DNA of 64,000 bases from an uncultured Planctomycetia bacterium (GTDB taxonomy: Bacteria; Omnitrophota; Gorgyraeia; Tantalellales; Tantalellaceae): the NCBI GenBank assembly GCA_964565425.1, contig CAZMEZ010000004.1, forward strand, positions 24,907 through 88,906, in the 5' to 3' direction. Position 1 is the first letter of the stretch; the number at the start of each line of letters is the position of its first letter. The notes under the pieces are model-generated. The model was not told the DNA's origin. It did not search any database and saw only the letters and a list, made by a program, of their open reading frames with translations. Shown here in pieces: positions 25,244-49,759 of the stretch. A program made the position numbers and the translations under genes.

Positions 25244-25586
25244 AGAGATCGCATAGCGCAAAGCGCATAGCGGTTCGCGATGTGCGGTTAGCGGGTCGAG
25301 AAAGTAAATAATAAGTGATACGTGATACGCAGGCTAGAGGCACGAGGCTAGAGGCACGAGGCTAGAGGCAAGAGGCAAGAGGCAAGAGGCGAAAGAAAGG
25401 CGTTGATTACGAAGATTAAGACGCAGACGATGATCTTAGATTACGAAGATCTGATCCCCGTAATCTATTTAAATCTTCGTAATCAAATTATATAGTACGC
25501 GTTATCTGTGATCATCTGTTTTAAATCTGTGCTCATCCGTGTTTTAAGGAAAAACGAACGACGAACGGCGAACAACGGACGACGAT
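25244..25586. repeat. Composite intergenic heptamer-repeat element (343 bp)
   Basis: In order: agcgcat-type heptamers; gtgatacgtgatacg; nine ggcNNga heptamers (ggctaga/ggcacga/ggcaaga) at 25332-25394; an inverted pair gattacgaagat ... atcttcgtaatc at 25405-25483; and gtgatcatctgttttaa plus cgaacga heptamers at 25507-25586. Homologous to 47702-47868, 59384-59700 and 61343-61700. Confidence 0.7.
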
Positions 25587-27050: not shown

Positions 27051-27051
27051 A

Positions 27052-36199: not shown

Positions 36200-37942
36200 A
36201 TGGAACGATCGGGTAAAGAACTGATAATACTTGTGGATAAGGCCGGGCTGGCGGCCGCAGGCCGTTCGCTCCTGGAAAGGTGCGATCGTGTTGCCATGAC
36301 CCCGGACGCGATACTCGCCTTAGAGGAAGAAGGTCTGTCCTTTTCCACGTTCGACGATATTTACGGGTACAGGCAGTTTCGCGAGGACAACCTAAGGATG
36401 ATGGATGAGACGGAAGACCTGTTCAGGGATCTGGACAGGAAATACAGCGCGTCTTTGGAGTATCCCCGCGCTTTTACGGGCAATATACTGTGGTTCCTGG
36501 TGTTCTTTGCCAACGCCCTTTATCTTTCGAAAGTGTGCCGGTGGGCTAAGAACAACTATACTAAGGTCCATTTGGCCGGTAGCGCTAAGTACGACAGGCC
36601 GCTCAGGATAGACCTGGATTTCTCCGAAAGGGGGCTCGCGTTCTGCGATTTTAACCGGGAACTGGCCAGCAAGGTCAGCATGCTGAGGGATGTTTTATCC
36701 CCGGATTGTTACTGGAGCGCCAATGCCCCCCAAAGGGGCGCCGGACGGCCCGTCGGTAGACAACAGCTGTTATTTTCCGCGAGGCAGACGGTCAAAAAGC
36801 CTTTAGTCAGAGCGAGAGCGTTTTTTGAAGAACATTCAGGTAAAGATAAGGATGTCATATTCGTAGTGCGGGACAGCAATGAAGTGAATTTCGTAAAAAG
36901 ACACATGGGGGATGTTGCTCTCAAGAAACCGCTCAAGAGAATGCTCGAGGACGCGTTCGAAGGGCGTTTGGAGAAGCAGGATATCGAATGCTCTTTCGAA
37001 ACAGAGATCCGGAGTTTCGCGTTGAAATGGTTCCCGGAATTCGAAAAGCGCGTCCTGGAAGCGTTCGAGGCCTATTTTGAAAAAGCGGTTCGCTGTCTCC
37101 GGGCATTTATGGACAAAGTAGAGGAAGCGTTCAAAGCGGACTCCCCGAAGGCGGTGTTCTATTCGTTTTCCCCCAACAGGGTATACGAGGACGTGCTCGC
37201 TTACGCGGCGAACGAGAGGAACATACCCGTGTTCGCTTTCTGGCATGTCGGTTCTCATGAAAAAGACAAGGATATTTACGCGAAGTACCTGGAGAGCAAT
37301 GAAAACGTGAAAATGGATGTCCTGGAGGTAAGCAAATTCTACAACCTGCATCTGGACCGGAAGAGCGGCAGGGGCAAAGGTATTTTATACTTCCCCGGGA
37401 TCTTTAATTCATACAACTACAAGGATCTCATGGTCAACGTTCCCGATAGAGCGCTTTTTGAGGTTACCAGGGACATAGTGGAGGTTGTCGGCGAGTTCGG
37501 CGCGGAGATGGATATAAAGATACACCCTAATGACGAAGAATACAATTATACGTATTTCAGCAACCTGCTGAAGGCAAAGGGGGCCGGGAACATCGGCATA
37601 CTCAGGGGATTCCCGGCGGAAAAGATAATGAAGCATTACAGTCTCTTTATATTCGATTACGCCGGGACCAGCTTGATACCGGCTGCCGGGGTTTTCGACA
37701 CGCCGGCTATATTGTATATAACCGACGATAGTGTTTTGAGGGAGAAAGCGATCCCGGACCTGGAGAGAAAGTTCCATATGGCTCGGCACAGATCCGATCT
37801 TGTGAAGCACATTAGCCTTTATGTGCAGGGAAAACTGGAAACAAAAATAACGGGTGAGCACGCTTTCCCGGCAGGGGAAGAAGCCCCTTGCGTTAAGATG
37901 GCAGGGTATGTGAAGAGCGTGATCGATACCGTAAAAACCTGA
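36200..37942 (+). CDS. Hypothetical protein, TagF/KpsS-like putative phospho(no)transferase
   Basis: 580 aa. The C-terminal segment IKIHPNDEE ... IFDYAGTSLIPAAGVFDTPAILYITDD resembles the Glyphos_transf KxHP and D-x-S motifs. Paralogous in outline to 29491-30996. Sits immediately upstream of the PEP mutase gene. Confidence 0.35.
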   Translation: MERSGKELIILVDKAGLAAAGRSLLERCDRVAMTPDAILALEEEGLSFSTFDDIYGYRQFREDNLRMMDETEDLFRDLDRKYSASLEYPRAFTGNILWFLVFFANALYLSKVCRWAKNNYTKVHLAGSAKYDRPLRIDLDFSERGLAFCDFNRELASKVSMLRDVLSPDCYWSANAPQRGAGRPVGRQQLLFSARQTVKKPLVRARAFFEEHSGKDKDVIFVVRDSNEVNFVKRHMGDVALKKPLKRMLEDAFEGRLEKQDIECSFETEIRSFALKWFPEFEKRVLEAFEAYFEKAVRCLRAFMDKVEEAFKADSPKAVFYSFSPNRVYEDVLAYAANERNIPVFAFWHVGSHEKDKDIYAKYLESNENVKMDVLEVSKFYNLHLDRKSGRGKGILYFPGIFNSYNYKDLMVNVPDRALFEVTRDIVEVVGEFGAEMDIKIHPNDEEYNYTYFSNLLKAKGAGNIGILRGFPAEKIMKHYSLFIFDYAGTSLIPAAGVFDTPAILYITDDSVLREKAIPDLERKFHMARHRSDLVKHISLYVQGKLETKITGEHAFPAGEEAPCVKMAGYVKSVIDTVKT

Positions 37943-39649
37943 ATGGAGCGGCCTAAAATGGAAAAAATAAGAGATATACGCGAAGCTTTTGAAAGACCGG
38001 GATTGGCCCGGATAGTCGGGGCGCACGACGGGCTTACGGCGAAGCTTGTGGAGAAGAACGATTTTGACGGGGTGTGGGCGAGCGGCCTCGAGATATCCGC
38101 TTCCTACGCTATCCCCGACGCCAGCATTCTCACGATGTCGCAATACCTGGAAAGGGCCTGTGAAATGAAAGACGCGGTATCGATCCCCGTCGTCGCGGAC
38201 TGCGATACCGGATACGGCAATTCAAACAACGTGATACACATGATCAAGAAGTATGAAGCGGCGGGGATCTCCGGAGTATGCATAGAGGATAAGAGGTTCC
38301 CCAAAGTGAACAGCCTTCTCGCGGAAGGAAGGCAGGAGCTCGCTCCGATAGCCGAATTCGTGGGCAAGATAATGGCCGCGAAGAACGCCCAATGCTCGGA
38401 AAGGTTCATGGTAATAGCGAGGGTGGAAGCCCTTATAGCCGGGTGGGGGGAGCAGGAAGCCCTTCTCAGGGCCGAAAAATACGCCGAGGCCGGGGCGGAT
38501 GCCATCCTGATACATTCCAAGGCGAATACCGCCGATGAAGTCATAAGTTTCGCCCGAAAGTGGGACAGGAGGCTGCCTTTGGTCATAGTGCCTACCAATT
38601 ATCCGTCGGTCATGATGGATCTTGGTGAGAAGGAGCTGCTTGATCTGGGCATAAAAATGGTGATCTTCGCGAATCAGGGATTAAGAAGCGCTATCAGGGC
38701 CATAAACGACACTTTCGCCGAGATAAAACAGGCGGGAGGCATACATACGGTGGATGGGAAGATCGTCAGTCTTGATGAAGTTTTCCACCTGCAGGGCATG
38801 ACCGATTTCAAGAAGCAGGAGAAGGAATACCTGAAGTCGGAGAATGAAGATGTTGCCGTTATCATGCCCGCTGCCGGGAAACCGGCCCACCAGGATTCCA
38901 TCGTGCCGCTGCTCACGGACAGGCCGCTTTGCATGATAGATATCAACGGGAAGACCCTGCTTGAAAGGAATCTGAACACCCTGAAGGAATTGCGTATCAA
39001 GAACGTGAATATGGTTGTCGGCTACAAGAAAGAGAGCATCCTCAAGGGGCTCGACCTGGACGGCATAAATCTCATCACGAACGACGATTACAGGACCAAA
39101 CACCTGCTCCATTCCATCATGCTTGCCGAGCGGGAGATGAAAGACAGGACGCTTATAGTCTACGCCGACATACTGTTCGATAAGAATCTCGTCAGCAGGA
39201 TCCTGGGTCTCAAGGAGGACATAGTCCTGGTGGGGGATAACACCTACAAGAAGTATGGGAAACGCAACAAGAAACTCGAGCTGATCAAAACATCCGAACC
39301 CATGACCACCGGCAAACGGGAGATCGCCAACGACGAACTTTTTAGCGTGGAGAGGATCGGCAGGGAAGTGGACGAGGCACCCTCGAATTTTGAATTCGCG
39401 GGCATAGCTTATTTGTCAAGGAAAGGGACGCAGTCGCTGAAAAGACTTTATTGCGAAAGGAAAAAAGAATTGGAAGGCGGGGACGAAAGGTTCCATGAAG
39501 CCGGGGGTTTCGACCAGGCGTCATTTACGGATATAATACAGGAAGCGATCGACAGCGGGATTTCGGTAAAGGTGTTGCCCGTGAATTCCGGTTGGATGGA
39601 GATACATGAATTCGAGGATTACAGGTTCGCCTGTGAAAAGATAAAGTAA
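37943..39649 (+). CDS. ppm: Phosphoenolpyruvate mutase fused to a C-terminal nucleotidyltransferase (cytidylyltransferase-like) domain
   Basis: The N-terminal approximately 290 aa belong to the ICL/PEPM family and carry the PEP-mutase-specific EDKRFPKVNS motif (rather than KKCGH). The C-terminal approximately 250 aa form a GlmU/MobA-type NTP-transferase fold (VAVIMPAAGKPAHQDSIVPLL). Confidence 0.8.
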   Translation: MERPKMEKIRDIREAFERPGLARIVGAHDGLTAKLVEKNDFDGVWASGLEISASYAIPDASILTMSQYLERACEMKDAVSIPVVADCDTGYGNSNNVIHMIKKYEAAGISGVCIEDKRFPKVNSLLAEGRQELAPIAEFVGKIMAAKNAQCSERFMVIARVEALIAGWGEQEALLRAEKYAEAGADAILIHSKANTADEVISFARKWDRRLPLVIVPTNYPSVMMDLGEKELLDLGIKMVIFANQGLRSAIRAINDTFAEIKQAGGIHTVDGKIVSLDEVFHLQGMTDFKKQEKEYLKSENEDVAVIMPAAGKPAHQDSIVPLLTDRPLCMIDINGKTLLERNLNTLKELRIKNVNMVVGYKKESILKGLDLDGINLITNDDYRTKHLLHSIMLAEREMKDRTLIVYADILFDKNLVSRILGLKEDIVLVGDNTYKKYGKRNKKLELIKTSEPMTTGKREIANDELFSVERIGREVDEAPSNFEFAGIAYLSRKGTQSLKRLYCERKKELEGGDERFHEAGGFDQASFTDIIQEAIDSGISVKVLPVNSGWMEIHEFEDYRFACEKIK

Positions 39650-39662
39650 GGGGAAAAAGGAT

Positions 39663-41213
39663 ATGGCCAGGAAAGGAAAGATTTTGATCATGTCCCCGAA
39701 CCTCAAAGGGGTGAAAGGCGGCGTCAACCGTATCCAGCCGAGCCTCGGCGTGGGGTATCTGGCGGCGGTCCTCGAGAGAGAGGGGCATGAGGTCCACATA
39801 CGCGACACGGCGCTCGAAGGGCACGGCAATGAAGTGCTTCTGGAGGACGGGAAGACGATCATGAGGGGGGAATCGGACGCCGAGATCGCGAAATACGTCT
39901 CATCCCTCGGTCCGGATATCGTGGGGATCTCGGTCCTTTTTTCCAATCTCGCGGAACATGCCCATAAGATCGCGAAGATCGTAAAGGAAACGGATCCGGA
40001 TATCAAAGTCGTCATGGGCGGCAATCACATAACCAATTCCGCCCGGGACTATATCTATGCCCTTACGCCGGGAAACGAAGATTCGAATCTCGGCAGGATC
40101 TTTTCCGATATGGAAGACCGTAATATCGATTACGCCATGGCCGGCGAATGTGATTTCCAGTTCGCGGAACTGGTGGACGCTTTATTGAACAAAAAGGACC
40201 CGAAAAACATCGCCGGACTTGTTTACAGGAAGCCCGGGTGCGGGACGCCGGACGCGAACGTTACGGTCAATCCCAATTTCTCGGACAGGCCGGATATAAG
40301 GAGATTGCCGCATCCCGCGCGGCATCTCATGAACATGGAAGGATATTTCAAAATAGATCTTTTTCATTCGACCAAATCGCATTCGGAAAGGGTCCTCAAC
40401 GTCATGGCGGCGCGGGGTTGCCCGGAAAAGTGCGCTTTTTGCACCACTCCTTCTACGTGGGGCAACAGGATCAGGTGGAGGGATCCCCTGGATATTTACG
40501 AGGAGATCGTCTCATGCGTCGAAAGATACGGCATCGGAGAGATCCAGTTTGAGGACGATACGTTAACAAGCAGCAAAGCGCACATAATGGACCTGTGCGA
40601 ACTCATGGAACCCCTGGGCATCCCGTGGTGTACCCCGAACGGGACGAAGGTCAATTATTACATGGAACACCAGCTCGAGATGTTCAGGAGAATGGCGAAG
40701 GCCGGATGCTACCAGGTAACGTTCGGGTGTGAAAGCGGAGTGCAACGGGTACTTGACCGGATAGTCCGCAAGAATCTGCGTATCGAACAGATACCGCGCG
40801 CCATAGATAACGCTAAAAAAGCCGGCCTTTTGGTGCATACCTTCTGGATCGTCGGGTTCCCGGGCGAGACCAGGCGGGAGATGGAAGAGACCGTGGAATT
40901 CGCCGCACGGGCCGGAGCTGACAGTTATTCTATATCCACTTTCTCGCCTTTGCCCGGCACGCCCATTTACAGGCAGGTCGTAAAGGAGAATCTCTGGTGG
41001 GACCCTGAAGTCAGGACGAAAGACATGCTTTTCAGGAATTCCCTTATCAGGGTCGACGAGTTCAGCGGTCCGGAGGAATTCCAGGCGTGGGTGGACGAGA
41101 AGAACGCCCATCTTAACGGTCTACTTGAAGAAAAGGACCCGGAGCGGGCGAAATGGGTGCGCGAGAGCAATGCGAGACGCCTCAGGCACGAGGCGAAGTT
41201 CAAATATACCTGA
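39663..41213 (+). CDS. B12-binding radical SAM enzyme (class B)
   Basis: B12-binding N-terminal domain and CPEKCAFC radical-SAM motif. Confidence 0.8.
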   Translation: MARKGKILIMSPNLKGVKGGVNRIQPSLGVGYLAAVLEREGHEVHIRDTALEGHGNEVLLEDGKTIMRGESDAEIAKYVSSLGPDIVGISVLFSNLAEHAHKIAKIVKETDPDIKVVMGGNHITNSARDYIYALTPGNEDSNLGRIFSDMEDRNIDYAMAGECDFQFAELVDALLNKKDPKNIAGLVYRKPGCGTPDANVTVNPNFSDRPDIRRLPHPARHLMNMEGYFKIDLFHSTKSHSERVLNVMAARGCPEKCAFCTTPSTWGNRIRWRDPLDIYEEIVSCVERYGIGEIQFEDDTLTSSKAHIMDLCELMEPLGIPWCTPNGTKVNYYMEHQLEMFRRMAKAGCYQVTFGCESGVQRVLDRIVRKNLRIEQIPRAIDNAKKAGLLVHTFWIVGFPGETRREMEETVEFAARAGADSYSISTFSPLPGTPIYRQVVKENLWWDPEVRTKDMLFRNSLIRVDEFSGPEEFQAWVDEKNAHLNGLLEEKDPERAKWVRESNARRLRHEAKFKYT

Positions 41214-41234
41214 TCTTACAAAGGATGATCGAAG

Positions 41235-42392
41235 ATGATAGATTGTTCGGATTTTTTTGAAGCGCTTAAAAACAGGAACCTGGCCTTTTTCACGGGCGTT
41301 CCGGATTCTTTGCTCAAGGATATCTGCGCCTGTATTTCCGATAATACGGGACCGGGAAACAACATCATCGCGGCGAATGAAGGGAACGCCGTCGCTTTGG
41401 CTGCCGGTTATCACCTGGCTACAGGAGAGATAGGCACCGTATACATGCAGAATTCAGGGCAAGGGAACGCGGTCAACCCCTTGACCTCCCTGGCGGACCC
41501 CGACGTTTACGGGATACCCATGCTGATGATCATCGCCTGGAGGGGTGAACCCGGAGGGAAGGACGAACCGCAGCATCTTAAACAGGGAAAGATCACATTG
41601 GAGATGCTCGACACCCTTAATATTCCTTATTCTGTTTTGCCGGAGGACACGATGGGATCCGGGAAGGTCCTGGATAGAGCTGTTGGATATATGGGGGACA
41701 AAAAGGCTCCGTACGCGTTGATCGTCAGGAAGGGCATTTTTGGGCCATATGTTACGCGGGACGTTGATATGCCGACCGGCGGACTTATGAAAGAAGAAGC
41801 GCTTAAACTCGTGGTCGGGAGTGTAGGGGAGCGGGACGTGATCGTCTCCACGACGGGAACGACCTCGAGAGAACTCTTCGAGCACAGGAAAGAGATCAAA
41901 GAAGGCCAGGGGAGGGATTTCTTGACAGTCGGTTCCATGGGGCATGCTTCCTCCATTGCTTTGGGGATAGCGCTCAGGAAGAAGGAACGGGATATTTATT
42001 GTCTGGACGGCGACGGGGCGGCCATCATGCACATGGGAGCGCTCGCCGTTATAGGCGACCAGTGCCCCCAGAACTTCAGACACATCATTTTTAATAACGG
42101 GGCCCATGATTCCGTGGGAGGGCAACCGACTGCCGGGTTCAGGATCGATTTTCCGGCTATCGCCATGGCTTGCGGGTACAAGGCGGCATTCAAGGCGGAA
42201 AACGCGGAGGAGATAGTGGAAAAGATGTCTTTATTGCGGGAGATTGACGGCCCGGCCCTGTTGGAAATAAGGGTAAGGAAAGGCTCGAGAAAGGACCTGG
42301 GACGTCCTTCGGTATCGCCGGTAGAAGGGAAAAAAGCTTTTATGGATTTTTTGTTCGAAAAGGATAAAGATCGCCAATCTCCGGAGGGATAG
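41235..42392 (+). CDS. ppd: Phosphonopyruvate decarboxylase (TPP-dependent)
   Basis: The N-terminus FFEALKNRNLAFFTGVPDSLLKD is diagnostic of Ppd/AepY-type (sulfopyruvate-decarboxylase-family) enzymes. Has a TPP-binding GDG..N region. Confidence 0.8.
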   Translation: MIDCSDFFEALKNRNLAFFTGVPDSLLKDICACISDNTGPGNNIIAANEGNAVALAAGYHLATGEIGTVYMQNSGQGNAVNPLTSLADPDVYGIPMLMIIAWRGEPGGKDEPQHLKQGKITLEMLDTLNIPYSVLPEDTMGSGKVLDRAVGYMGDKKAPYALIVRKGIFGPYVTRDVDMPTGGLMKEEALKLVVGSVGERDVIVSTTGTTSRELFEHRKEIKEGQGRDFLTVGSMGHASSIALGIALRKKERDIYCLDGDGAAIMHMGALAVIGDQCPQNFRHIIFNNGAHDSVGGQPTAGFRIDFPAIAMACGYKAAFKAENAEEIVEKMSLLREIDGPALLEIRVRKGSRKDLGRPSVSPVEGKKAFMDFLFEKDKDRQSPEG

Positions 42393-43513
42393 TGTTGAAT
42401 TATCGCATGCCGACGAACATAAATTTTGGTAAAGATTGCCTGGCCGGTCTGGCCGATGTTATCGCGCCTGGCCCGGCGGGGAAAGTCCTTGTTTTCACGG
42501 GAACAGGATCGGCTAAAATTTCAGGCGCTCTTGACCGTATAACCGGGATATTGTCCGGGTGCAACCCGGTCTTTTTTGAAGGTATAGAGCCCGATCCCGC
42601 CTTAGAGAGCCTGGAAAGAGGCATAGAAGTGTGCAGGCGGGAGGTCCCGGACCTCATCATAGCGGTCGGCGGAGGCAGCGTTATCGATTACGCGAAAGCG
42701 GTTTCCGTCCTGGCGGGGGAAGAAGGGGAAGTGTCGGATTTCTTCAGGGGCGGACGGAAACTAAAAGGCGGCAGGGCCGCGTTTATCGCGGTCCCGACCA
42801 CTTTCGGCACTTCGAGCGAGATAACCCCTTACGCGGTGATGACCGATACGGTAAACGGTATCAAGATCACCCTGGAAGACGCGAGCATATTCCCGGACCG
42901 GGCGTTCATTGACCCGAAATTTACCTTGACGATGCCGGAAGAGCTCGTGGCCGCCTCCTGCGCGGATCTCCTGTCCCACGCTGTCGAGGCGTACTGGAAC
43001 GTGAACGCCACGGAACTCACGGATATTTTCGCGTTGCAGGCCATAAGAACTTTCATGGGATCCTACAAGCGGACGTTCGAATCCCCCGCCGATACGGCAG
43101 CCAGGGGAAGGATAGTCCTGGCGGGCATATGCGCCGGATTGGCTTTTTCGAACACCAGGACAACGGCGTGCCACTCCATCTCATATCCGATGACCGCTGT
43201 CTTCGGCGTGCCTCACGGCATGGCATGCGTTTTAACGCTGGGCGAGATGCTGGAGTTCAATTCGACGGCTAGCGGGGAAAAGCTCCTGGCGTTGTGCGGC
43301 GCCATGGATTGCGGTGATGTGCGGGAAGCGAAACAGAAAATAGGATCTATCCTGAAAGATCTGCGCATTAAAACAAGATTAAGGGATTACGGCCTGAAAA
43401 AGGGCGATCTTGCCCTTATCCTGGACAAGGGGTTCACCCCGGAGAGGATGGCGAACAATCCCGGTAAGGTCACCAGGGACGACCTGGAAAAAATGCTGGA
43501 GAGGATATATTGA
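42392..43513 (+). CDS. Iron-containing alcohol dehydrogenase (phosphonoacetaldehyde reductase-like)
   Basis: Fe-ADH family (GGGSVIDYAKA). The position after ppd matches FomC/PhpC. A GTG start at 42392 overlaps the ppd stop. An ATG at 42407 is an alternative start. Confidence 0.7.
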   Translation: MLNYRMPTNINFGKDCLAGLADVIAPGPAGKVLVFTGTGSAKISGALDRITGILSGCNPVFFEGIEPDPALESLERGIEVCRREVPDLIIAVGGGSVIDYAKAVSVLAGEEGEVSDFFRGGRKLKGGRAAFIAVPTTFGTSSEITPYAVMTDTVNGIKITLEDASIFPDRAFIDPKFTLTMPEELVAASCADLLSHAVEAYWNVNATELTDIFALQAIRTFMGSYKRTFESPADTAARGRIVLAGICAGLAFSNTRTTACHSISYPMTAVFGVPHGMACVLTLGEMLEFNSTASGEKLLALCGAMDCGDVREAKQKIGSILKDLRIKTRLRDYGLKKGDLALILDKGFTPERMANNPGKVTRDDLEKMLERIY

Positions 43514-45000
43514 TGAAGAGACCCGAACAATTCAAGGTGCTGCTGGTCCTGGCTAACGGCTACATGGACTCACTGATACCGCCGAACATCTCGCTCTTGT
43601 CGGCCTACCTGAAGAGAGAAGCTTTCCAGGTAAGGCTTTTCGACACCGTTTTTTATAAAACAAAGGAAAAAACAGGCGACGATGTCCGGTATGAAACGCT
43701 GCAGGTCAAATCGGCTAACGTGGCCGAGTATGGCGTTACGCGCAAAGACGGTGACCTGATCGGGGATTTCAGAAAAGCCGTACTGGAATACGAACCTGAC
43801 CTCGTAGCGCTGTCGACGATAGAGGCTACGCATCCCCTGGGCATGTCGCTCCTGCGGAGCATAAGCGATATCGAGGTTGAAAAAATAGTAGGGGGGATAT
43901 ATACCACTATCAGCCCGGATGAAGTGATAAATGAAGATTGCGTCGATATCATCTGTATCGCTGAAGGGGACAACGCGCTGATCGAGCTGTGTCACAGGAT
44001 GAGGAAGGGAGAGGATTATTCCGATATCCGGAACCTGTGGGTAAAAAAGAACGGTTCGGTGTCCCGGAATGAACTGGCCACCCCCGTAGATATAAATAAA
44101 ATGCCCTTCCAGGACTGGTCGATATTCGACAAAAAACGTCTGTACAAGTCCATGGGGGGAAGGGTCAATATCACGGGATGCATCGAGCTGAACAGGGGAT
44201 GTCCTTATAACTGTACTTACTGCTGCAACGCGAAATTGCATGAACTGTACGAGAACAGGTTCTACCGGGAGCGGGATGTGAAGAACTTCGTGGCGGAAGT
44301 TGTGGAAAAAAAGGAAAAATACGACCTGGGTTATGTCTATGTAGCCGCCGAATCTTTCTTGACGACAAGAGAAGAAAGGTTCGAAGAATTCATCAAGCTG
44401 TACGGGGACGTGAAGATCCCGTTCTGGGTGCAGTCAAGGCCCGAGGCGATCCGGGAAGAAAGGATAGTCAAACTGGGATCCGTCGGCTGCGAGGGTTTGA
44501 GCGTAGGGGTCGAGAGCGGTAACGAGGAATACAGGAGGGACGTGTTGAACAGGAGGATGAGCAACGATGATATCGTCAGGGCGTTCAAGGTCCTGAGCAG
44601 GCATCCGGAGATCAGGAATTGCGCGAACAGCGTGATCGGGTTCCCCGACGAGACCAGGGGGCATATCTTTGAGACCATAGAATTGATCAAGAGGGTGCAG
44701 CCGAGGAACGTGATGGTCCACATATTCAACCCCTACAGGGGCACCAAACTGCACGATATATGCGTGGAAAAAAATTACCTGTCGAAGGACAGTCTGTGCG
44801 GGGACTACAGGATGGACGTGGCCATTGAGAATCCCAACCTGACCAAAGAAGAGATCAGGGGATTGCAGAGGACGTTCGCGTTATACGTGAGGTTCCCGGA
44901 GAACCGTTATAAGGAAATAGAACGCGCCGAGAAATTCGACAAAGAGGGTAATGAGTTGTTCGGGAAATTAAGCGTGGAATTCAAAAGCAAGTATTTATGA
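43510..45000 (+). CDS. B12-binding radical SAM enzyme (class B; Fom3-like methyltransferase candidate)
   Basis: B12-binding domain and CPYNCTYC motif. Sits directly after the ppd-adh pair. Confidence 0.8.
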   Translation: MMKRPEQFKVLLVLANGYMDSLIPPNISLLSAYLKREAFQVRLFDTVFYKTKEKTGDDVRYETLQVKSANVAEYGVTRKDGDLIGDFRKAVLEYEPDLVALSTIEATHPLGMSLLRSISDIEVEKIVGGIYTTISPDEVINEDCVDIICIAEGDNALIELCHRMRKGEDYSDIRNLWVKKNGSVSRNELATPVDINKMPFQDWSIFDKKRLYKSMGGRVNITGCIELNRGCPYNCTYCCNAKLHELYENRFYRERDVKNFVAEVVEKKEKYDLGYVYVAAESFLTTREERFEEFIKLYGDVKIPFWVQSRPEAIREERIVKLGSVGCEGLSVGVESGNEEYRRDVLNRRMSNDDIVRAFKVLSRHPEIRNCANSVIGFPDETRGHIFETIELIKRVQPRNVMVHIFNPYRGTKLHDICVEKNYLSKDSLCGDYRMDVAIENPNLTKEEIRGLQRTFALYVRFPENRYKEIERAEKFDKEGNELFGKLSVEFKSKYL

Positions 45001-45019
45001 TACCGCGAAGGATCTATCG

Positions 45020-45739
45020 ATGAAAGCAGTTATAGTAGCGGCAGGAAGATCGAGCAGGTTGTATCCATTGACCCTGGACACGCCGAAACCTCTCCTGGAG
45101 GTCAACGGCAGGTCCATCATCGAGCGTTCCATTTCCAATCTTCGCCGGAACGGCATAGACGAGATCGGGGTAGTGGTCGGCTATCTGCGGGAACGGTTCC
45201 TTGAAGCGCTGAAGGACGGGGTGACGTTCATCGATAACCCGCGTTACGCGACCACGAACAACATGGCTTCCCTCTGGTATGCCAGGGATTTCGTGGGGGG
45301 TGACGAGTTCGTGTATCTGCACGGGGACGTAGTGTACCACCCGGACATACTTGAAGATTGCCTGAGGTGCGACGGTGATATCACCCTGATGGTCGACAAA
45401 AAGAAGTGCGACGAAGAGGACATGAAGGTAAGGGTTGCGGGTGACCGCTTCCTGGGATCCAGCAAGGACATACCGGTGAATGAGTCCTACGGGGAGTGGA
45501 TAGGGATCGCTAAATTTTCCGCCAAGGGCGGGAGCCTGGTATTCAGCGAAATAGACAAGGTGCTGGACGACGGGAAGAACAACGCTTATGACACCTATGC
45601 TTTTACGGGACTGGCCATGCGGGATCACCCGATAGATATCTGCCATACGCGGGGCTTGTCCTGGGTCGAAATAGATTTTCCGGAAGAACTGGAAAGAGCA
45701 AAGAAGATATGCCTGGCCATGGAGAAAGAGGGGGAATGA
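45020..45739 (+). CDS. Nucleotidyltransferase (LicC-like small NTP-transferase)
   Basis: AVIVAAGRSSRLYPLTLDTPKPLL motif. 239 aa, catalytic domain only. Confidence 0.7.
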   Translation: MKAVIVAAGRSSRLYPLTLDTPKPLLEVNGRSIIERSISNLRRNGIDEIGVVVGYLRERFLEALKDGVTFIDNPRYATTNNMASLWYARDFVGGDEFVYLHGDVVYHPDILEDCLRCDGDITLMVDKKKCDEEDMKVRVAGDRFLGSSKDIPVNESYGEWIGIAKFSAKGGSLVFSEIDKVLDDGKNNAYDTYAFTGLAMRDHPIDICHTRGLSWVEIDFPEELERAKKICLAMEKEGE

Positions 45740-46653
45740 TGAGGTCCTTGAAGGATATCAGGAAAATGCAGTACGAGTATCATTACGAACATGAGATGTG
45801 CCAGTTCTTCAGGGATTGGAAGAAGGCCCCGTACTCGTATTTCAGGGGTATCATGTGGATGGAGATGAGCTCGTTCGTCGTTTATATCCTGCAGAGAACG
45901 AAGGTCACGCCCAATGCCCTCTCGGTCGCTTATTGCCTGTCCGGATTGGCCGGCGGGGTCCTGCTGGCTATCCCGATGAAGGCGACCATCCTTGCCGCTG
46001 TCTTTGTGTTCTTTTTTAAGGCGATATTCGACTGGTGCGACGGCTTGCTCGCGCGCGTAACGCGCAAATTCTCTCTTGTAGGGGATATACTGGATTGCTA
46101 CGGTGCCATTTTGGGAGCCATGGGGCTTGAGATAGGACTGGGATTCTATGTAGCCCACAGATCCGGCATGGCCCTGTATTACTATCTTATACCTCTTATT
46201 CCCTTATTTTTCTTTGGTAAGCTGCACTCGTTCGTGTTTCACATATTTTACAAGAACTATATTACGACCCCGAGATTGAAGGAACTTTTCGGCAAACAGG
46301 CGCGGGATCACGCGGCACAGGCCGCCGGCAGCGGTCCGGAAAAGGTCCTTAGCGGGGGGTTCGAAAAAATAAGGAATTTCATCAACAATTTTCTGGATCA
46401 TCGTTCCAGGACCATAGATCTTATATGCCTGTTGCTTTTGGTGGAGCAGTTCACGCCCGTTTTCGTCACATGGATAGTGTTCCTGGGGTTTGTGATCAAG
46501 GAATTTCTGTTGTTCTCGGCTTCGTTCTATGTCGTAGCGAGGCGCGGGTGGGCGGAAAAAGAGATGGAAAAGAAACTTGCAGAGATATCGGGATCTTTCC
46601 CGCGGGGGGCGGAAAAGAGCGGCGCCGAAGTTCCGGTATCGCCGGAGGAGTGA
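45736..46653 (+). CDS. CDP-alcohol phosphatidyltransferase-family membrane transferase
   Basis: DWCDGLLAR-x8-G-x3-D signature within a polytopic membrane protein. Start set at the ATG overlapping the upstream stop (ATGA). Confidence 0.65.
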   Translation: MMRSLKDIRKMQYEYHYEHEMCQFFRDWKKAPYSYFRGIMWMEMSSFVVYILQRTKVTPNALSVAYCLSGLAGGVLLAIPMKATILAAVFVFFFKAIFDWCDGLLARVTRKFSLVGDILDCYGAILGAMGLEIGLGFYVAHRSGMALYYYLIPLIPLFFFGKLHSFVFHIFYKNYITTPRLKELFGKQARDHAAQAAGSGPEKVLSGGFEKIRNFINNFLDHRSRTIDLICLLLLVEQFTPVFVTWIVFLGFVIKEFLLFSASFYVVARRGWAEKEMEKKLAEISGSFPRGAEKSGAEVPVSPEE

Positions 46654-46660
46654 TCAATCC

Positions 46661-47701
46661 ATGAACATAGAAAATCTGATAGACAGCCCGTTGAAAAAGG
46701 AAGGGGATATATGGTACGGCCCCGAGGGCGGGTACTGGTCCAACCTGGAGAGGTCCAAGAGTGAGATCTATCTGAAGGACCTGGAGGCCCTGGGTTCGAT
46801 GGAGACCATGAAAAAATATTTTCCGCAGCACGGGGACGTCATTTCCCTGAAAAGGATGGGCGGGGCCGCGACACTTGACCTTGCCCCGGGCGAAAAGGTG
46901 CTTGACGCGGGTTGCATGTGGGGAGCGCTCGCGGTGCCGCTTGCCAGGACACGGGCGGAGGTCATTGCGGTCGACCAGACCAGGGAAAGCATGCTGTTCC
47001 TGGCCAAAAGAAAGGAAGAAGAGGCCCTGGAGAACCTGCACCTGGTGTGCGGCGACCTGAAGGAAATAAAATTCAGGGAGAAGATTTTCGATAAAGTGAT
47101 CGTGAACGGCGTGCTGGAATGGGTCCCCGAAACGCAAACGGTCGAGGTGGGGAATTTTATCAGGCGGAAAAATCCTTTCCTCGAGAACCTGAAACTCCTC
47201 TTCTCGAAGCGGGAGAGAAAGGATTCCCCGAGGGAAAAACAGCGTCGTTTCCTGGGTAAGATACAAAGGGCGCTCAAGGATGACGGCACCCTTTACCTGG
47301 CGATAGAGAACAGGTACGATGTTTTTTATTTCTTCGGTATTCCCGAACCGCATTGCGGGATCAGGTTCATTTCGCTCTTGCCGCGGTGGGCGCAGGACAT
47401 CCTGTCGCTGCTCCTCAGGGGGAGGAGGTTCAGGTTGTGGACTTATTCGAAAAAGGAACTGGAGGACCTGTTGCGCGCGTCCGGGTTCTCGAAAATAAAG
47501 TTCCATTACGCTTTTCCGGATTATAAGGAACCGGAGCAGGTCTTGACGGATGAAGGGATGGAACTCTTCAGGTATTGCAAATCCGCGGGAGATAAGCCGT
47601 TCTATAAAAAGGCCGTCCTGCGGTTTATCGAGGAAGTCGTGTTCAAAAGGATGAAACTGACGTTCTTCGCGCCGAGCTTTATCGTGCACGCGGAGAAGTG
47701 A
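46661..47701 (+). CDS. Class I SAM-dependent methyltransferase
   Basis: VLDAGCMWGALA motif I. Start trimmed to the ATG after the upstream stop. The antisense ORF 46496-47689 is a shadow. Confidence 0.65.
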   Translation: MNIENLIDSPLKKEGDIWYGPEGGYWSNLERSKSEIYLKDLEALGSMETMKKYFPQHGDVISLKRMGGAATLDLAPGEKVLDAGCMWGALAVPLARTRAEVIAVDQTRESMLFLAKRKEEEALENLHLVCGDLKEIKFREKIFDKVIVNGVLEWVPETQTVEVGNFIRRKNPFLENLKLLFSKRERKDSPREKQRRFLGKIQRALKDDGTLYLAIENRYDVFYFFGIPEPHCGIRFISLLPRWAQDILSLLLRGRRFRLWTYSKKELEDLLRASGFSKIKFHYAFPDYKEPEQVLTDEGMELFRYCKSAGDKPFYKKAVLRFIEEVVFKRMKLTFFAPSFIVHAEK

Positions 47702-47868
47702 TAAGCAATAAGTGATAGGTGATAGGTAATACGTGGGCGAAAGGCTAGAGGCGAAATTGATTACGAAGATTTTGAAGTAGACGATAATCTTAGATTACGA
47801 AGATGTAATCTCCGCGATCTCATTTAAATCTCGTAATCAACGAAAAACGAATAACGCAATACGAATTT
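47702..47868. repeat. Composite intergenic heptamer-repeat element
   Basis: taagcaa/taagtga/taggtga heptamers, ggc-aga heptamers, then gaaattgattacgaagattttgaagtagacgataatcttagattacgaagatgtaatctccgcgatctcatttaaatctcgtaatcaac. Near-identical to 61585-61680. Confidence 0.7.
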
Positions 47869-47918
47869 AGCCGGGATCTTAAAGTTTACGGCTTACAGCT
47901 GACAAAGAAAGGTATGAT

Positions 47919-48823: not shown

Positions 48824-49759
48824 ATGAAGTTTTCGATCACCATACCTTTATTTAACGGCGCGAAATTCATAGCGAATACGCTTGATTCGGTCCTGGCGCA
48901 GACATACAAGGATTATGAAGTGATCCTGGTCAACGACGGTTCACCGGATAACATCGGTGAAGTGGTCCGCGAATACATGGGCGCGCACCCCGAAACGCGT
49001 TTTATTTACGTGGAGCAGGAGAACCGCGGGTTGGGAGGGGCGAGGAACACCGCCATAAAGCACGCTTCCGGCGATATCATAGCGATCCTGGACCAGGATG
49101 ACATCTGGTACCCGGAAAAGCTGGAGAGGGTGGCGTATATATACCGGCAGTCCCCCGAAGTCGACGTTGTATGCCACGGCCAGATAGTGCGCCGGGACGG
49201 GAAGGTGGTGCGCATTTTCGATCCCGGTCCGGACAACAATATTCACCGGAGGCTGCTCTTTGTCGATAACATGCTTTCCACCTCGGCTACGACCTTCAGG
49301 AAAGCCATTATAGATGAAATAGGGGGTTTTTCGGAGGACAGGGAGAACTTTCATTTCGCCGAGGACTATGACCTTTGGCTGAGGATGGCGGATAAAGGAT
49401 ACAAGTTCCGTTTCACCGGCGAGATCCTCGGCGAATACAGCGAACATGATTCTAATTTTTCACATAATCTGGAAGTGATGCTGGATAGCGAGATAAACGT
49501 TTTATTGAAACATTATAAGTCCTTTAAAAGCAAGAACTTAAAGGATATTTACCTGATGAGGAGGAACCTCGCGGTGGTATATTTCCGCATCTCGAGAAAA
49601 TATTTCCGGCAGAAACGCGCTCTTTACGGTCTCGGATACCTGACAAGGGCTTTCCTGCAGGACCCGTTTTTTATCGTGACATACACACCGCATTACATCG
49701 AGAAGTTAATGCGCAAAAGGGATCCGGAGATCTCGCTCGGAGAAGAATTCCGATCATGA
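48824..49759 (+). CDS. Glycosyltransferase family 2
   Basis: GT-A fold with VNDGSPD and DQDD (DxD) motifs. Confidence 0.8.
   Translation: MKFSITIPLFNGAKFIANTLDSVLAQTYKDYEVILVNDGSPDNIGEVVREYMGAHPETRFIYVEQENRGLGGARNTAIKHASGDIIAILDQDDIWYPEKLERVAYIYRQSPEVDVVCHGQIVRRDGKVVRIFDPGPDNNIHRRLLFVDNMLSTSATTFRKAIIDEIGGFSEDRENFHFAEDYDLWLRMADKGYKFRFTGEILGEYSEHDSNFSHNLEVMLDSEINVLLKHYKSFKSKNLKDIYLMRRNLAVVYFRISRKYFRQKRALYGLGYLTRAFLQDPFFIVTYTPHYIEKLMRKRDPEISLGEEFRS

What the first reader, a model, noticed from the sequence alone, without database searches (positions are those of the whole stretch)
36200..47701. Fosfomycin-early-pathway-like phosphonate module wired to transferases inside a surface-glycan locus
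Nine co-directional genes run contiguously, several with 4-nt overlaps. In order they are: a TagF-like transferase (36200), a PEP mutase carrying the EDKxFPKxNS signature and fused to a nucleotidyltransferase (37943), a B12-radical-SAM enzyme (39663), phosphonopyruvate decarboxylase (41235), an Fe-alcohol dehydrogenase (42392), a second B12-radical-SAM enzyme (43510), a LicC-like nucleotidyltransferase (45020), a CDP-alcohol phosphotransferase (45736) and a SAM methyltransferase (46661). It is established that Ppm, Ppd and an ADH together make 2-hydroxyethylphosphonate. In fosfomycin biosynthesis the Fom1 cytidylyltransferase domain makes CMP-2-HEP, and the B12-radical-SAM enzyme Fom3 C-methylates it to CMP-2-hydroxypropylphosphonate. 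Here there is no HppE epoxidase or FomD hydrolase. The pathway enzymes sit next to CDP-alcohol and TagF-type transferases and an MsbA-like exporter. My inference is that a cytidylylated, C-methylated (possibly doubly methylated) hydroxyalkylphosphonate is installed on a glycan or lipid as a cell-surface phosphono-decoration, not released as an antibiotic. I do not know of an exact precedent for this combination, with two B12-radical-SAM enzymes, a methyltransferase and TagF/CDP-alcohol transferases.
Basis: partly seen in the sequence, partly recalled or inferred. Interest (0 to 1): 0.85.

Follow-up and report, generated by a model that had tools for sequence, protein, structure and literature searches.

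The report
Phosphonate surface-decoration cassette, two B12 enzymes
A Candidatus Omnitrophota surface-polysaccharide locus carries a gene cassette that makes 2-hydroxyethylphosphonate, probably activates it with CMP, alters it with two vitamin-B12-dependent radical enzymes and attaches it to the cell envelope; related cassettes occur in many uncultured microbes, including ocean SAR11, so an uncharacterised class of modified phosphonates may be widespread.

Summary
The nine co-directional genes are real.

The "TagF-like" gene has no sequence match to TagF. It is a GT-B-fold protein of an unannotated family whose relatives sit among nonulosonic-acid genes. It is more likely a CMP-sugar transferase.

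A close relative's locus keeps GT-B, CDP-OH transferase and methyltransferase adjacent but has no ppm/ppd/ADH within the 22 kb read. The six genes 37943-45739 therefore behave as a cassette.

The radical-SAM gene at 39663 belongs to a large family. Of 23 loci with full flanks, 15 have ppm or ppd within 10 kb, and 18 of the 60 loci are SAR11 genomes. Its nearest curated family is the Sden_1168 "P-methyltransferase", below cut-off. The second radical-SAM recurs with Ppm fusions in aminoethylphosphonate versions of the cassette.

Fom3-like C-methylation is a reasonable analogy, but I could not test it because no Fom3 sequence was obtainable. There is no HppE or FomD, so this is not an antibiotic cluster.

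Verdict: a new variant of cell-surface phosphonate tailoring. Interest 0.6.

The parts
34362..36185 (+). MsbA-type ABC exporter (fused TMD-NBD). Context gene, conserved immediately upstream of the module in relatives.
   Evidence: Pfam ABC_membrane + ABC_tran. Homologues lie upstream of the GT-B or Ppm genes in L003, L066, L069 and L078.
36200..37942 (+). GT-B-fold protein of an unannotated ~600-aa family. Invariant residues D79, H349 and K440, plus a K-x-H-P motif. Probably a CMP-donor (nonulosonate) transferase, not demonstrably TagF.
37943..39649 (+). PEP phosphomutase (residues ~1-300) fused to a C-terminal LicC/PntC-type nucleotidyltransferase domain (~305-560).
   Evidence: PF13714 181 bits; PF12804 29 bits; TIGR02320 303 bits. 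PDB 5unc 320 bits against methylisocitrate lyase ~82 bits. EDKRFPKVNS aligned to known Ppm proteins, while PPH has Thr in place of Asn.
39663..41213 (+). Cobalamin-dependent radical SAM enzyme 'rSAM1', Sden_1168-like clade. Its family is predominantly linked to ppm/ppd.
   Evidence: PF02310 + PF04055; NF038361 236 bits (cut-off 575); PhpK family 119 bits. 858 homologues. 60 genome loci. ppm or ppd within 10 kb in 15 of 23 loci with full flanks.
41235..42392 (+). Phosphonopyruvate decarboxylase (Ppd).
   Evidence: TIGR03297 476 bits, above the 312.5 cut-off.
42392..43513 (+). Iron-containing alcohol dehydrogenase, PhpC/FomC-like phosphonoacetaldehyde reductase (inferred).
   Evidence: PF00465 + PF25137. 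The best NCBIfam model is TIGR03405 Phn_Fe-ADH at 252 bits, below its 423.7 cut-off.
43513..45000 (+). Cobalamin-dependent radical SAM enzyme 'rSAM2'. The ORF opens at TTG 43510; the likely start is ATG 43513.
   Evidence: PF04055 64 bits; PF02310 31.7 bits. The database copy is 495 aa. Orthologues at 50-72% identity sit next to Ppm fusions in L066, L080 and L081. Homologues at 47-48% identity in anammox bacteria have no phosphonate genes nearby.
45020..45739 (+). Stand-alone LicC/PntC-type nucleotidyl (cytidylyl) transferase.
   Evidence: PF12804 and PF00483. PDB LicC 1jyk 66 bits; PntC 6pd1 52 bits over the full length. 24% identical to the Ppm-fused domain.
45736..46653 (+). Integral-membrane CDP-alcohol-phosphotransferase-like protein of a subfamily that lacks the fourth signature Asp.
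   Evidence: PF01066 39.6 bits. Motif DWCDGLLAR-x8-GDILD-CYG-A; hydrophobic segments. The same loss is seen in homologues from L003, L006, L001, L019, L055, L032 and L081.
46661..47701 (+). Class-I SAM-dependent methyltransferase (346 aa), conserved partner of the CDP-OH transferase.
   Evidence: Methyltransf_11/25/31. No specific PDB relative. It follows the CDP-OH gene in L003, L078 and L081.

Best explanation
The run is a composite of three parts.

1. The phosphonate cassette (37943-45739). These six genes make 2-hydroxyethylphosphonate: Ppm converts PEP to phosphonopyruvate, Ppd gives phosphonoacetaldehyde, and the Fe-ADH gives 2-HEP. One or both LicC/PntC-type nucleotidyltransferases activate it as a CMP conjugate. 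The two cobalamin-dependent radical SAM enzymes then remodel its carbon skeleton. The most likely chemistry is methylation of unactivated carbon(s), as Fom3 does on CMP-2-HEP.

2. The transfer pair (45736-47701). The divergent CDP-alcohol-phosphotransferase-like membrane protein transfers the phosphonyl group from CMP to an acceptor hydroxyl at the membrane. My preferred acceptor is a lipid-linked glycan intermediate; a diacylglycerol-type lipid is the alternative. The methyltransferase adds a further methyl.

3. The upstream GT-B protein (36200-37942). It belongs to the surrounding pseudaminic-acid glycan pathway, probably as a CMP-nonulosonate transferase.

The product leaves through the adjacent MsbA-type exporter as an envelope decoration.

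Shown here: the gene families, the Ppm signature, the conserved synteny, and the linkage of both radical-SAM families to ppm. Inferred: CMP activation, the chemistry of both radical-SAM enzymes and the methyltransferase, the acceptor, and the export route.
For: The Ppm signature is present and the Ppm/PPH discrimination is met. Ppd scores above its curated cut-off, and the best ADH model is the phosphonate-pathway Fe-ADH. The nucleotidyltransferase is closest to LicC and to the AEP cytidylyltransferase PntC. Ppm-PF12804 fusions and cytidylyl activation are the norm in cell-surface phosphonate pathways (PMC6697681). Fom3 acts on 2-HEP-CMP (PMC8992657).

The rSAM1 family has ppm or ppd within 10 kb in 15 of 23 loci with full flanks. 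rSAM2 orthologues at 50-72% identity lie inside Ppm-NT/Ppd clusters in three further lineages. Two of these have an AEP transaminase in place of the ADH, and both also carry a Sden_1168-like radical-SAM enzyme; L081 in addition has the same CDP-OH subfamily followed by a methyltransferase.

The relative L078 keeps GT-B, CDP-OH and MT adjacent, with no ppm, ppd or ADH in the 22 kb read.

The locus context is pseudaminic-acid genes, GT2, GT4, WecG, a WbaP-like transferase, a multi-TM ORF and an ABC exporter. There is no HppE or FomD.
Against: There is no biochemical evidence at all. Orthology to Fom3 could not be tested.

rSAM1's nearest curated family is named a P-methyltransferase. Eight of the 23 full-flank rSAM1 loci lack ppm and ppd nearby. 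L078 has rSAM1 with no ppm in 22 kb.

rSAM2 relatives in anammox bacteria, and a 32% rSAM1 relative in Eleftheria terrae, sit in loci with no phosphonate genes. The window holds three more B12-radical-SAM genes that presumably act on sugars.

The CDP-OH protein lacks the fourth Asp of the family signature. From my own knowledge this residue is the proposed catalytic base, so its activity is uncertain. The Ppm and ADH scores are below their NCBIfam equivalog cut-offs.
Confidence: 0.6

Rival explanations
1. The product is a phosphonolipid, not a glycan decoration. The CDP-alcohol-phosphotransferase-like protein transfers the (modified) hydroxyethylphosphonyl group from CMP to diacylglycerol or a similar lipid, and the lipid is flipped outward by the ABC exporter.
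For: As far as I know, nearly all characterised CDP-alcohol phosphotransferases make lipid head-group phosphodiesters. The best NCBIfam hits are PIP, archaetidylinositol-phosphate and cardiolipin synthases. Relatives of the cassette carry LPG_synthase_TM (MprF flippase-like) genes: L001, L080, and the anammox loci L067 and L068. The exporter is MsbA-like.
Against: The cassette is embedded in, and apparently inserted into, a glycan locus. Phosphonate cassettes with rSAM1 recur next to NeuB/PseB/PseC genes in SAR11 and archaeal loci. No acyltransferase or lipid-synthesis gene is present in the window.
Confidence: 0.3
2. One or both radical-SAM enzymes of the module do not touch the phosphonate. 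They modify a sugar of the glycan, for example by C-methylation or epimerisation, like the three other B12-radical-SAM genes of the locus. The decoration is then plain 2-HEP.
For: There are five B12-radical-SAM genes in the locus. The closest in-window paralogue of rSAM2 is rSAM3, at 30% identity. B12-radical-SAM relatives occur in glycan or lipid loci without phosphonate genes. L078 has rSAM1 without ppm in 22 kb.
Against: Both genes are interleaved with ppm, ppd and the ADH gene. The rSAM1 family is ppm/ppd-linked in 15 of 23 loci. rSAM2 orthologues sit beside Ppd, ADH or AEPT in L066, L080 and L081, across different glycan contexts.
Confidence: 0.15
3. The radical-SAM enzymes act on the phosphonate but are not C-methyltransferases. 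They could be oxygen-independent counterparts of phosphonate oxygenases (hydroxylation, rearrangement or C-C cleavage), or rSAM1 could be a P-methyltransferase that makes a phosphinate.
For: rSAM1's best curated match is the Sden_1168 P-methyltransferase family, followed by HpnJ and PhpK. B12-radical-SAM enzymes also catalyse ring contractions and rearrangements (PMC8992657 abstract). From my own knowledge, Omnitrophota are largely anaerobes.
Against: From my own knowledge, P-methylation needs a P-H phosphinate. None of the gene families I scanned in the window resembles the enzymes that make one, such as HEPD or CPEP mutase. All rSAM1 scores are far below the cut-offs. Aerobic SAR11 carries the same family next to a PhyH-type dioxygenase.
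Confidence: 0.15
4. This is a fosfomycin-like or other diffusible phosphonate natural-product cluster.
For: It shares Ppm, Ppd, ADH, a cytidylyltransferase and a B12-radical-SAM enzyme with the fom cluster. The Roseibium relative L051 has an ATP-grasp ligase, which is typical of phosphonopeptides.
Against: No HppE, FomD, resistance kinases, ATP-grasp or NRPS genes were found. The module is flanked on both sides by glycan-assembly genes and includes a membrane transferase.
Confidence: 0.03

Closest known systems
Early fosfomycin pathway of Streptomyces (Fom1 CyTase-Ppm, Fom2 Ppd, FomC ADH, Fom3 B12-radical-SAM C-methyltransferase)
   Same: The enzyme logic is the same: PEP to PnPy to PnAA to 2-HEP, cytidylylation, and a cobalamin radical-SAM step (PMC6697681 and PMC8992657). 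The families are all present in the window.
   Different: The nucleotidyltransferase is a C-terminal PF12804 domain, not an N-terminal PF01467 domain. There are two radical-SAM enzymes. HppE, FomD and FomA/B are absent. A membrane CDP-OH-type transferase and a methyltransferase are added. The setting is a glycan locus. Orthology of either radical-SAM enzyme to Fom3 was not testable.
Phosphonyl-tailoring (Pnt) cell-surface pathways with PntC cytidylyltransferases (Rice et al. 2019, PMC6697681)
   Same: A Ppm fused to a PF12804 nucleotidyltransferase, a second nucleotidyltransferase nearby, a predicted CMP-phosphonate donor and a glycan context.
   Different: The characterised Pnt systems make AEP and are proposed to use LicD-like transferases. 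This system uses the HEP branch, two B12-radical-SAM enzymes and a CDP-OH-like transferase.
HEP-decorated exopolysaccharides (Stackebrandtia nassauensis, cited in PMC8942020) and the unassigned Campylobacter family 'ppm-ppd flanked by radical SAM and adenylylsulfate kinase' (GCF 385, same paper)
   Same: 2-HEP as a glycan substituent. A radical-SAM gene next to ppm-ppd is noted but unexplained in that paper. APS-kinase-containing relatives were seen here in L005 and L066.
   Different: No radical-SAM tailoring of a surface phosphonate has been characterised. The window has no APS kinase.
SD_1168 (Sden_1168) and PhpK cobalamin radical-SAM P-methyltransferases
   Same: This is the best curated family match for rSAM1, aligned nearly end to end. 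Sden_1168-like enzymes sit in Ppm/Ppd clusters in L051, L080 and L081.
   Different: Scores are 236-364 bits against a cut-off of 575. No phosphinate-forming genes are present, so P-methylation has no obvious substrate.
IPCT/DIPPS (inositol-1-phosphate cytidylyltransferase plus CDP-inositol phosphotransferase)
   Same: A nucleotidyltransferase immediately followed by, and overlapping, a CDP-alcohol phosphotransferase. The best NCBIfam hit of the nucleotidyltransferase is this bifunctional enzyme, at 78 bits.
   Different: Here they are separate genes. Scores are far below the cut-off of 580. The fourth Asp of the transferase signature is missing.
Tannerella forsythia pseudaminic/legionaminic-acid transferases (TagB-like GT-B with the sialyltransferase HP motif; PMC5420450)
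   Same: For gene 36200: a GT-B fold, a K-x-H-P motif in the C-terminal domain, and a location beside CMP-nonulosonate biosynthesis genes.
   Different: No detectable sequence similarity was tested or found. The protein is ~600 aa rather than ~445 aa and belongs to an unannotated family.

Membership tests
PEP phosphomutase (Ppm) | EDKxxxxxNS active-site motif, with Asn rather than the Thr of phosphonopyruvate hydrolase | tested here: met
   CIEDKRFPKVNS aligns with 5unc TIEDKRFPKVNS and Mytilus CLEDKLFPKTNS. PPH has EDKTFPKDTS.
PEP phosphomutase (Ppm) | Scores better against Ppm than against methylisocitrate lyase or oxaloacetase, and reaches the curated equivalog cut-off | tested here: inconclusive
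   PDB Ppm 320 bits against methylisocitrate lyase ~82 and oxaloacetate hydrolase 60. TIGR02320 scores 303.4 bits, just below its 319.55 cut-off.
Phosphonopyruvate decarboxylase (Ppd) | TIGR03297 equivalog score above the cut-off | tested here: met
   476.4 bits against 312.5.
Phosphonoacetaldehyde reductase (PhpC/FomC-type Fe-ADH) | Fe-ADH fold, and the phosphonate-pathway equivalog model above its cut-off | tested here: inconclusive
   PF00465 and PF25137 score strongly. TIGR03405 is the best model but scores 252.5 bits against a 423.7 cut-off.
Fom1-type bifunctional enzyme | N-terminal PF01467 cytidylyltransferase domain fused to Ppm | tested here: not met
   The fusion partner is a C-terminal PF12804 domain. 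The Fom1 architecture is described in PMC6697681. The SAR11 and Roseibium relatives do have the Fom1 architecture.
Fom3 (CMP-2-HEP C-methyltransferase) | Class-B architecture: N-terminal cobalamin-binding domain plus a radical-SAM CxxxCxxC core | tested here: met
   PF02310 + PF04055 in both enzymes. Motifs are at C253 (rSAM1) and C231 (rSAM2).
Fom3 (CMP-2-HEP C-methyltransferase) | Orthology or closest similarity to Fom3 | not testable with these tools
   No Fom3 chain appeared among the PDB hits at E <= 0.01, and no NCBIfam model named for Fom3 appeared among the hits shown. The papers' supplements lack the sequence or are not held.
Sden_1168 / PhpK radical-SAM P-methyltransferases | Curated score cut-off (575 / 600 bits) | tested here: not met
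   rSAM1 scores 236 and 119.5 bits; rSAM2 scores 37 and 71.5 bits.
CDP-alcohol phosphotransferase | Pfam PF01066 above its gathering score; multi-pass membrane protein | tested here: met
   39.6 bits against 22. Two clusters of overlapping hydrophobic windows, at residues 61-104 and 226-269.
CDP-alcohol phosphotransferase | Full signature D-x2-D-G-x2-A-R-x7-12-G-x3-D-x3-D | tested here: not met
   DWCDGLLAR-x8-GDILD-CYG-A: the fourth Asp is Ala. It is Gly, Ala, Ser or Thr in all 8 subfamily members examined. An unrelated CDP-OH gene in L080 keeps it.
TagF / CDP-glycerol glycerophosphotransferase | Sequence membership (Pfam Glyphos_transf) | tested here: not met
   No Pfam hit for the protein or for 40 family members at E <= 0.01. 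The family profile finds no PDB sequence.
TagF / CDP-glycerol glycerophosphotransferase | GT-B fold resembling TagF/TarL | tested here: inconclusive
LicC/PntC phosphonyl-tailoring cytidylyltransferase | Similarity to LicC and PntC over the catalytic domain | tested here: met
   1jyk 66 bits; 6pd1 52 bits over residues 2-229. Nucleotide and substrate specificity are not testable here.
Fosfomycin biosynthetic cluster | HppE epoxidase and FomD CMP hydrolase present | tested here: not met
   No cupin or FomD-like domains were found among the annotated + strand genes I scanned between 15 and 62 kb.

The most novel reading that the evidence does not exclude
Two families of cobalamin-dependent radical SAM enzymes form a widespread, uncharacterised tailoring step of cell-surface phosphonate biosynthesis. 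They would C-methylate CMP-activated C2 phosphonates (2-HEP or 2-AEP) to give C3/C4 phosphonate head groups on glycans or lipids of Omnitrophota, DPANN archaea, candidate-phyla-radiation bacteria, Nitrospinota and, notably, SAR11.

If so, SAR11 would be a source of propyl-type phosphonates in marine dissolved organic matter. From memory, Repeta et al. 2016 reported propylene as well as methane and ethylene from C-P lyase action on marine polysaccharide phosphonate esters. I could not verify this with the library.
Probability: 0.3. Interest if true: 0.8.

Novelty: new variant of a known kind. Interest (0 to 1): 0.6.

Why it matters
Most bacterial phosphonate capacity goes into cell-surface decoration, yet the steps after Ppm, Ppd and AEPT or ADH are largely unknown (PMC6697681, PMC8942020).

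This locus and its relatives define a recurrent cassette with the following components:
- a Ppm-nucleotidyltransferase fusion and Ppd;
- either an ADH or an AEP transaminase;
- a stand-alone nucleotidyltransferase;
- two B12-radical-SAM enzymes;
- an atypical CDP-alcohol transferase;
- a methyltransferase.

The cassette predicts surface phosphonates that have not been chemically described. It also gives concrete candidate enzymes for anaerobic-style C-H functionalisation of phosphonates.

The rSAM1 family is present in 18 SAR11 genomes of the 60 loci found. This would connect the chemistry to the marine phosphorus and methane/alkene cycle, and would imply a cobalamin-dependent enzyme in a lineage usually regarded as B12-independent.

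For Omnitrophota it points to an unusual, hydrolysis-resistant envelope decoration.

Tried and rejected
- Fom3 comparison. There is no Fom3 structure among the PDB hits. The supplement of PMC8158854 holds other genes only. PMC6103835 and PMC6554712 are not held. The Fom3 membership question stays open.
- Exact-sequence look-ups of the window's Ppm, P0001 and P0232 found nothing.
- The afdb50 fold library was unavailable.
- Rfam found no RNA family, so no cobalamin riboswitch in the window.
- Promoter- and terminator-like sites are at chance level.
- Composition shows no anomaly over the cassette, so insertion is inferred from synteny only.
- Literature searches for propylene or hydroxypropylphosphonate in marine DOM found nothing usable. 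Searches for SAR11 or Omnitrophota phosphonate radical-SAM enzymes also found nothing.
- Rejected: a flagellin-glycosylation island. None of the ORFs I scanned is a flagellin or Maf-type gene, and a WbaP-type initiating transferase and WecG are present.
- Rejected: phosphonopyruvate hydrolase or methylisocitrate lyase identity for the mutase domain.
- Rejected: DhpI-like identity for the methyltransferase. There is no specific PDB match.

Full report
**1. Observation**

ORF listing confirms nine co-directional + strand ORFs from 36200 to 47701.

Junction inspection shows the following:
- TGA|ATG abutting at 37942/37943.
- 1-nt overlaps at 42392 and 43513.
- One true ATGA overlap at 45736.
- Gaps of 7-21 nt at the other junctions.
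- A 14-nt gap to the upstream ABC gene and a 217-nt gap after 47701.

That contig (L003, and its IMG twin L070) has the same gene order. The eight cassette and transfer proteins are 69-89% identical and the GT-B protein is 41% identical. These are therefore conserved genes, not chance ORFs.

A protein at least 90% identical to the second radical-SAM enzyme is deposited as Candidatus Omnitrophota. The best genome relatives are also Omnitrophota. The source is therefore very likely an Omnitrophota MAG.

**2. Families**

The Pfam, NCBIfam and PDB searches give the following:

- 37943-39649 is a PEP mutase. It matches PDB 5unc at 320 bits, against about 82 bits for methylisocitrate lyase. It carries CIEDKRFPKVNS. 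The Asn distinguishes it from phosphonopyruvate hydrolase, which has Thr at that position in the alignment. The C-terminal ~265 residues are a PF12804 (LicC/MobA-type) nucleotidyltransferase.
- 41235-42392 is phosphonopyruvate decarboxylase (476 bits, cut-off 312.5).
- 42392-43513 is an Fe-ADH. Its best model is the phosphonate-pathway ADH, though below its cut-off.
- 39663-41213 (rSAM1) and 43513-45000 (rSAM2) both have a B12-binding domain and a CxxxCxxC radical-SAM core.
- 45020-45739 is closest to LicC and to the AEP cytidylyltransferase PntC. It is only 24% identical to the Ppm-fused domain.
- 45736-46653 passes the Pfam threshold for CDP-OH_P_transf.
- 46661-47701 is a generic class-I methyltransferase.

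**3. The "TagF-like" gene**

Gene 36200-37942 has no Pfam, NCBIfam or PDB sequence match.

The word-indexed search found only eight relatives. A profile search of 1.84 billion representatives found 280, mostly about 600 aa. None of 40 sampled members hits Glyphos_transf. One weakly hits polysialyltransferase.

The family has invariant D79, H349 and K440, and a mostly conserved K-x-H-P. This resembles the HP motif of CMP-dependent GT-B transferases. The Tannerella Pse/Leg transferases are described as TagB-like GT-B proteins with that motif (PMC5420450).

Relatives of the gene lie among nonulosonic-acid genes with no phosphonate genes. L072 sits between two NeuB pathways, and L071 and L077 are adjacent to NeuB.

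I therefore read this gene as a probable CMP-nonulosonate transferase of the surrounding glycan pathway, not as the phosphonyl transferase. This is an inference.

**4. Context**

The whole window is one + strand glycan locus. It contains:
- A pseudaminic-acid-like pathway at 17743-28077: PseB-like, PseC-like, CMP-sugar synthetase, a HisH/HisF-like pair and NeuB.
- A third B12-radical-SAM gene (31961), an epimerase and an MsbA-type exporter (34362).
- Downstream of the module: RmlD, GT2, two more B12-radical-SAM genes (49756, 51245), DegT, GT4, an acetyltransferase and WecG/TagA.
- A multi-TM ORF (58064) and a WbaP-like initiating transferase (59783).

No cupin/HppE, FomD, kinase-resistance, ATP-grasp or NRPS genes were seen.

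**5. The module is a composite**

An Omnitrophota relative (L078, the same contig as L006) is syntenic with the window. Its order runs ...rSAM0, epimerase..., ABC, PIG-L, GT-B, CDP-OH, MT, APH-like, RmlD, GT2, rSAM3, rSAM4, rSAM1, DegT. It lacks the Ppm-NT, Ppd, ADH, rSAM2 and NT genes in the 22 kb read.

In the window those genes, together with rSAM1, lie exactly between the GT-B and CDP-OH genes. The six genes 37943-45739 therefore behave as a cassette.

A second Omnitrophota locus (L066) has ABC, an unknown gene, then a Ppm with a C-terminal extension 61% identical to the window's nucleotidyltransferase domain, Ppd, ADH, rSAM2 (72% identity), NT and APS kinase, without rSAM1.

Base composition gives no sign of recent transfer.

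**6. The radical-SAM families**

*rSAM1.* This enzyme has 858 homologues at E < 1e-10. A scan of species-representative genomes returned 60 loci. They include Omnitrophota, Nitrospinota, Nano- and Woesearchaeota, Methanosarcinales and candidate-phyla-radiation bacteria, plus 18 Pelagibacteraceae (SAR11) genomes at 48-54% identity.

Of the 23 loci that have at least 42% identity and at least 8 kb on both sides, 15 have ppm or ppd within 10 kb. In several of the remaining eight, a LicC-type nucleotidyltransferase or NeuB genes are adjacent.

The SAR11 version (L005) reads as follows: a Fom1-like CyTase-Ppm fusion, Ppd, an AEPT-like gene, a small CyTase, APS kinase, rSAM1, PhyH. It is flanked by NeuB, PseB and PseC genes. 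This matches the unassigned Campylobacter family "ppm-ppd flanked by radical SAM and adenylylsulfate kinase" noted by Li and Horsman (PMC8942020).

The best curated model for rSAM1 is the Sden_1168 "P-methyltransferase" family (236 bits, cut-off 575), ahead of HpnJ and PhpK. More distant Sden_1168-like enzymes (299-364 bits) also sit in Ppm/Ppd clusters in Roseibium, L080 and L081.

*rSAM2.* This enzyme has 815 homologues. At 47-48% identity in anammox bacteria it sits in an AP_endonuc_2 / radical-SAM / LPG_synthase_TM trio with no phosphonate genes.

At 50-51% identity it lies inside two further phosphonate clusters:
- L080: CDP-OH, a B12-radical-SAM gene, Ppm-NT, AEPT, NT, rSAM2, a Sden_1168-like radical-SAM gene, ..., LPG_synthase_TM.
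- L081: a B12-radical-SAM gene, Ppm-NT, a split Ppd, rSAM2, AEPT, NT, CDP-OH (45% identity, the same subfamily), MT, a Sden_1168-like radical-SAM gene, GT2.

The architecture [quoted passage not shown] therefore recurs in full in the window, L003 and L081. L080 shares it in part: no Ppd was seen, its CDP-OH belongs to a different subfamily that keeps the fourth Asp, and no methyltransferase was seen. The recurrence holds whether the phosphonate carries OH or NH2 at C2.

This is the main argument that both radical-SAM enzymes, the CDP-OH protein and the methyltransferase act on the phosphonate unit.

Counter-evidence:
- Eight of the 23 rSAM1 loci lack ppm nearby.
- L078 lacks ppm in the region read.
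- An Eleftheria terrae plasmid has a 32% rSAM1 relative in a plain glycan cluster.
- The window has three more B12-radical-SAM genes, only 22-30% identical to one another.

**7. The transferase**

The CDP-OH-like protein has DWCDGLLAR-x8-GDILD-CYG-A. The first three Asp residues of the family signature are present, but the fourth is Ala. The same loss (Gly, Ala, Ser or Thr) is found in all homologues from Omnitrophota, Nitrohelix, SAR11 and L081. An unrelated CDP-OH gene in L080 keeps the full motif.

From my own knowledge, the fourth Asp is the proposed catalytic base. This is therefore a distinct subfamily whose activity should not be assumed.

**8. Mechanism proposed**

Shown: the families needed to make 2-HEP are present and conserved, and the Ppm signature is intact.

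Inferred by analogy:
- Cytidylylation. PntC and Fom1 are the precedents (PMC6697681).
- Radical-SAM action on the CMP conjugate. Fom3 converts 2-HEP-CMP to (S)-2-HPP-CMP (PMC8992657).
- Phosphonyl transfer from CMP to an acceptor by the membrane protein.
- A further methylation.
- Export by the ABC transporter.

P-methylation is unlikely because nothing in the window could make a P-H phosphinate.

Whether the acceptor is a lipid-linked glycan or a lipid is open. The glycan setting, and the repeated co-location of such cassettes with nonulosonic-acid genes, favour glycan. The enzymology of the CDP-OH family, and the LPG_synthase_TM genes in relatives, favour lipid.

**9. Comparison with the known, and novelty**

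Already known (PMC6697681, PMC8942020):
- Ppm fusions to PF12804 domains.
- Nucleotidyl activation of phosphonates.
- HEP on exopolysaccharides.

I found no description of any of the following:
- B12-radical-SAM tailoring in a surface-phosphonate pathway.
- This CDP-OH subfamily.
- The recurrent cassette.

I rate it a new variant of a known kind, with interest 0.6.

The most novel reading that remains open is that these enzymes make C-methylated surface phosphonates across many uncultured lineages, including SAR11. That might explain the propylene-yielding phosphonates of marine DOM. This link rests on my memory of Repeta et al. 2016, and the library could not confirm it.

Noticed in passing
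window 31961-33394, 39663-41213, 43510-45000, 49756-51228, 51245-52591: Five cobalamin-binding radical SAM genes lie in one ~20-kb glycan locus. They are only 22-30% identical pairwise. Three are outside the phosphonate cassette and presumably modify sugars. No cobalamin riboswitch or B12 uptake gene is in the window.
   Followed up: partly
L016-L022, L030-L032, L035, L036, L038, L041-L043, L045, L055 (Pelagibacteraceae genomes): Eighteen SAR11 single-cell or MAG genomes encode a B12-binding radical SAM enzyme 48-54% identical to rSAM1, mostly beside CyTase-Ppm, Ppd, APS kinase and PhyH genes and nonulosonic-acid genes. From my own knowledge SAR11 is usually regarded as lacking B12-dependent enzymes, so this is unexpected.
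   Followed up: partly
window 45736-46653; L001 8316-9170; L081 11285-12118; L019, L032, L055: This is a subfamily of CDP-alcohol-phosphotransferase-like membrane proteins in which the fourth Asp of the family signature is always replaced by Gly, Ala, Ser or Thr. Most examples lie in loci with ppm and/or ppd genes, and all lie beside a Sden_1168-like radical SAM gene.
   Followed up: partly
L067 9110-12829 and L068 8923-12714 (Scalindua / Brocadiales-type genomes): In anammox planctomycetes there is a conserved trio: an AP_endonuc_2 (xylose-isomerase-like TIM barrel) gene, a B12-radical-SAM gene 47-48% identical to rSAM2, and an LPG_synthase_TM gene. No phosphonate genes are present. AP_endonuc_2 and LPG_synthase_TM genes also appear at the edges of phosphonate cassettes L081, L080 and L001.
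   Followed up: no
L080 11018-13904: In a Ppm cluster, a CTP_transf_like domain is fused to a citrate-synthase/citryl-CoA-lyase-like domain. It is followed by a second citryl-CoA-lyase-like gene and an HD-domain gene. This suggests a different, carboxylate-extending phosphonate branch in the same cluster.
   Followed up: no
window 20630-22035: A HisH-like glutamine amidotransferase and a HisF-like cyclase pair lie inside the pseudaminic-acid-like gene set. The same pair occurs in L072. It may amidinate or otherwise modify the nonulosonic acid.
   Followed up: no
window 22050-23249 and 29491-30996 (also L078 448-1938): These are conserved ORFs of 399 aa and 501 aa with no Pfam family. The second is syntenic with an unannotated 496-aa ORF next to the Methyltransf_23 and B12-radical-SAM genes in the Omnitrophota relative.
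   Followed up: no
window 47702-47918: This is the only sizeable intergenic gap in the locus (217 nt). It contains short direct repeats (AAGTGATA... twice, GATTACGAAGAT twice) and an imperfect inverted repeat. Promoter and terminator scans were at chance level.
   Followed up: partly
L081 6962-8004: Phosphonopyruvate decarboxylase is split into separate N-terminal and C-terminal TPP-domain genes, like the two-subunit sulfopyruvate decarboxylases.
   Followed up: no
window 8434-12336: A sigma-54-dependent response regulator and rpoN lie a few kb upstream of the glycan locus, on the same strand. Any regulatory link to the locus was not examined.
   Followed up: no
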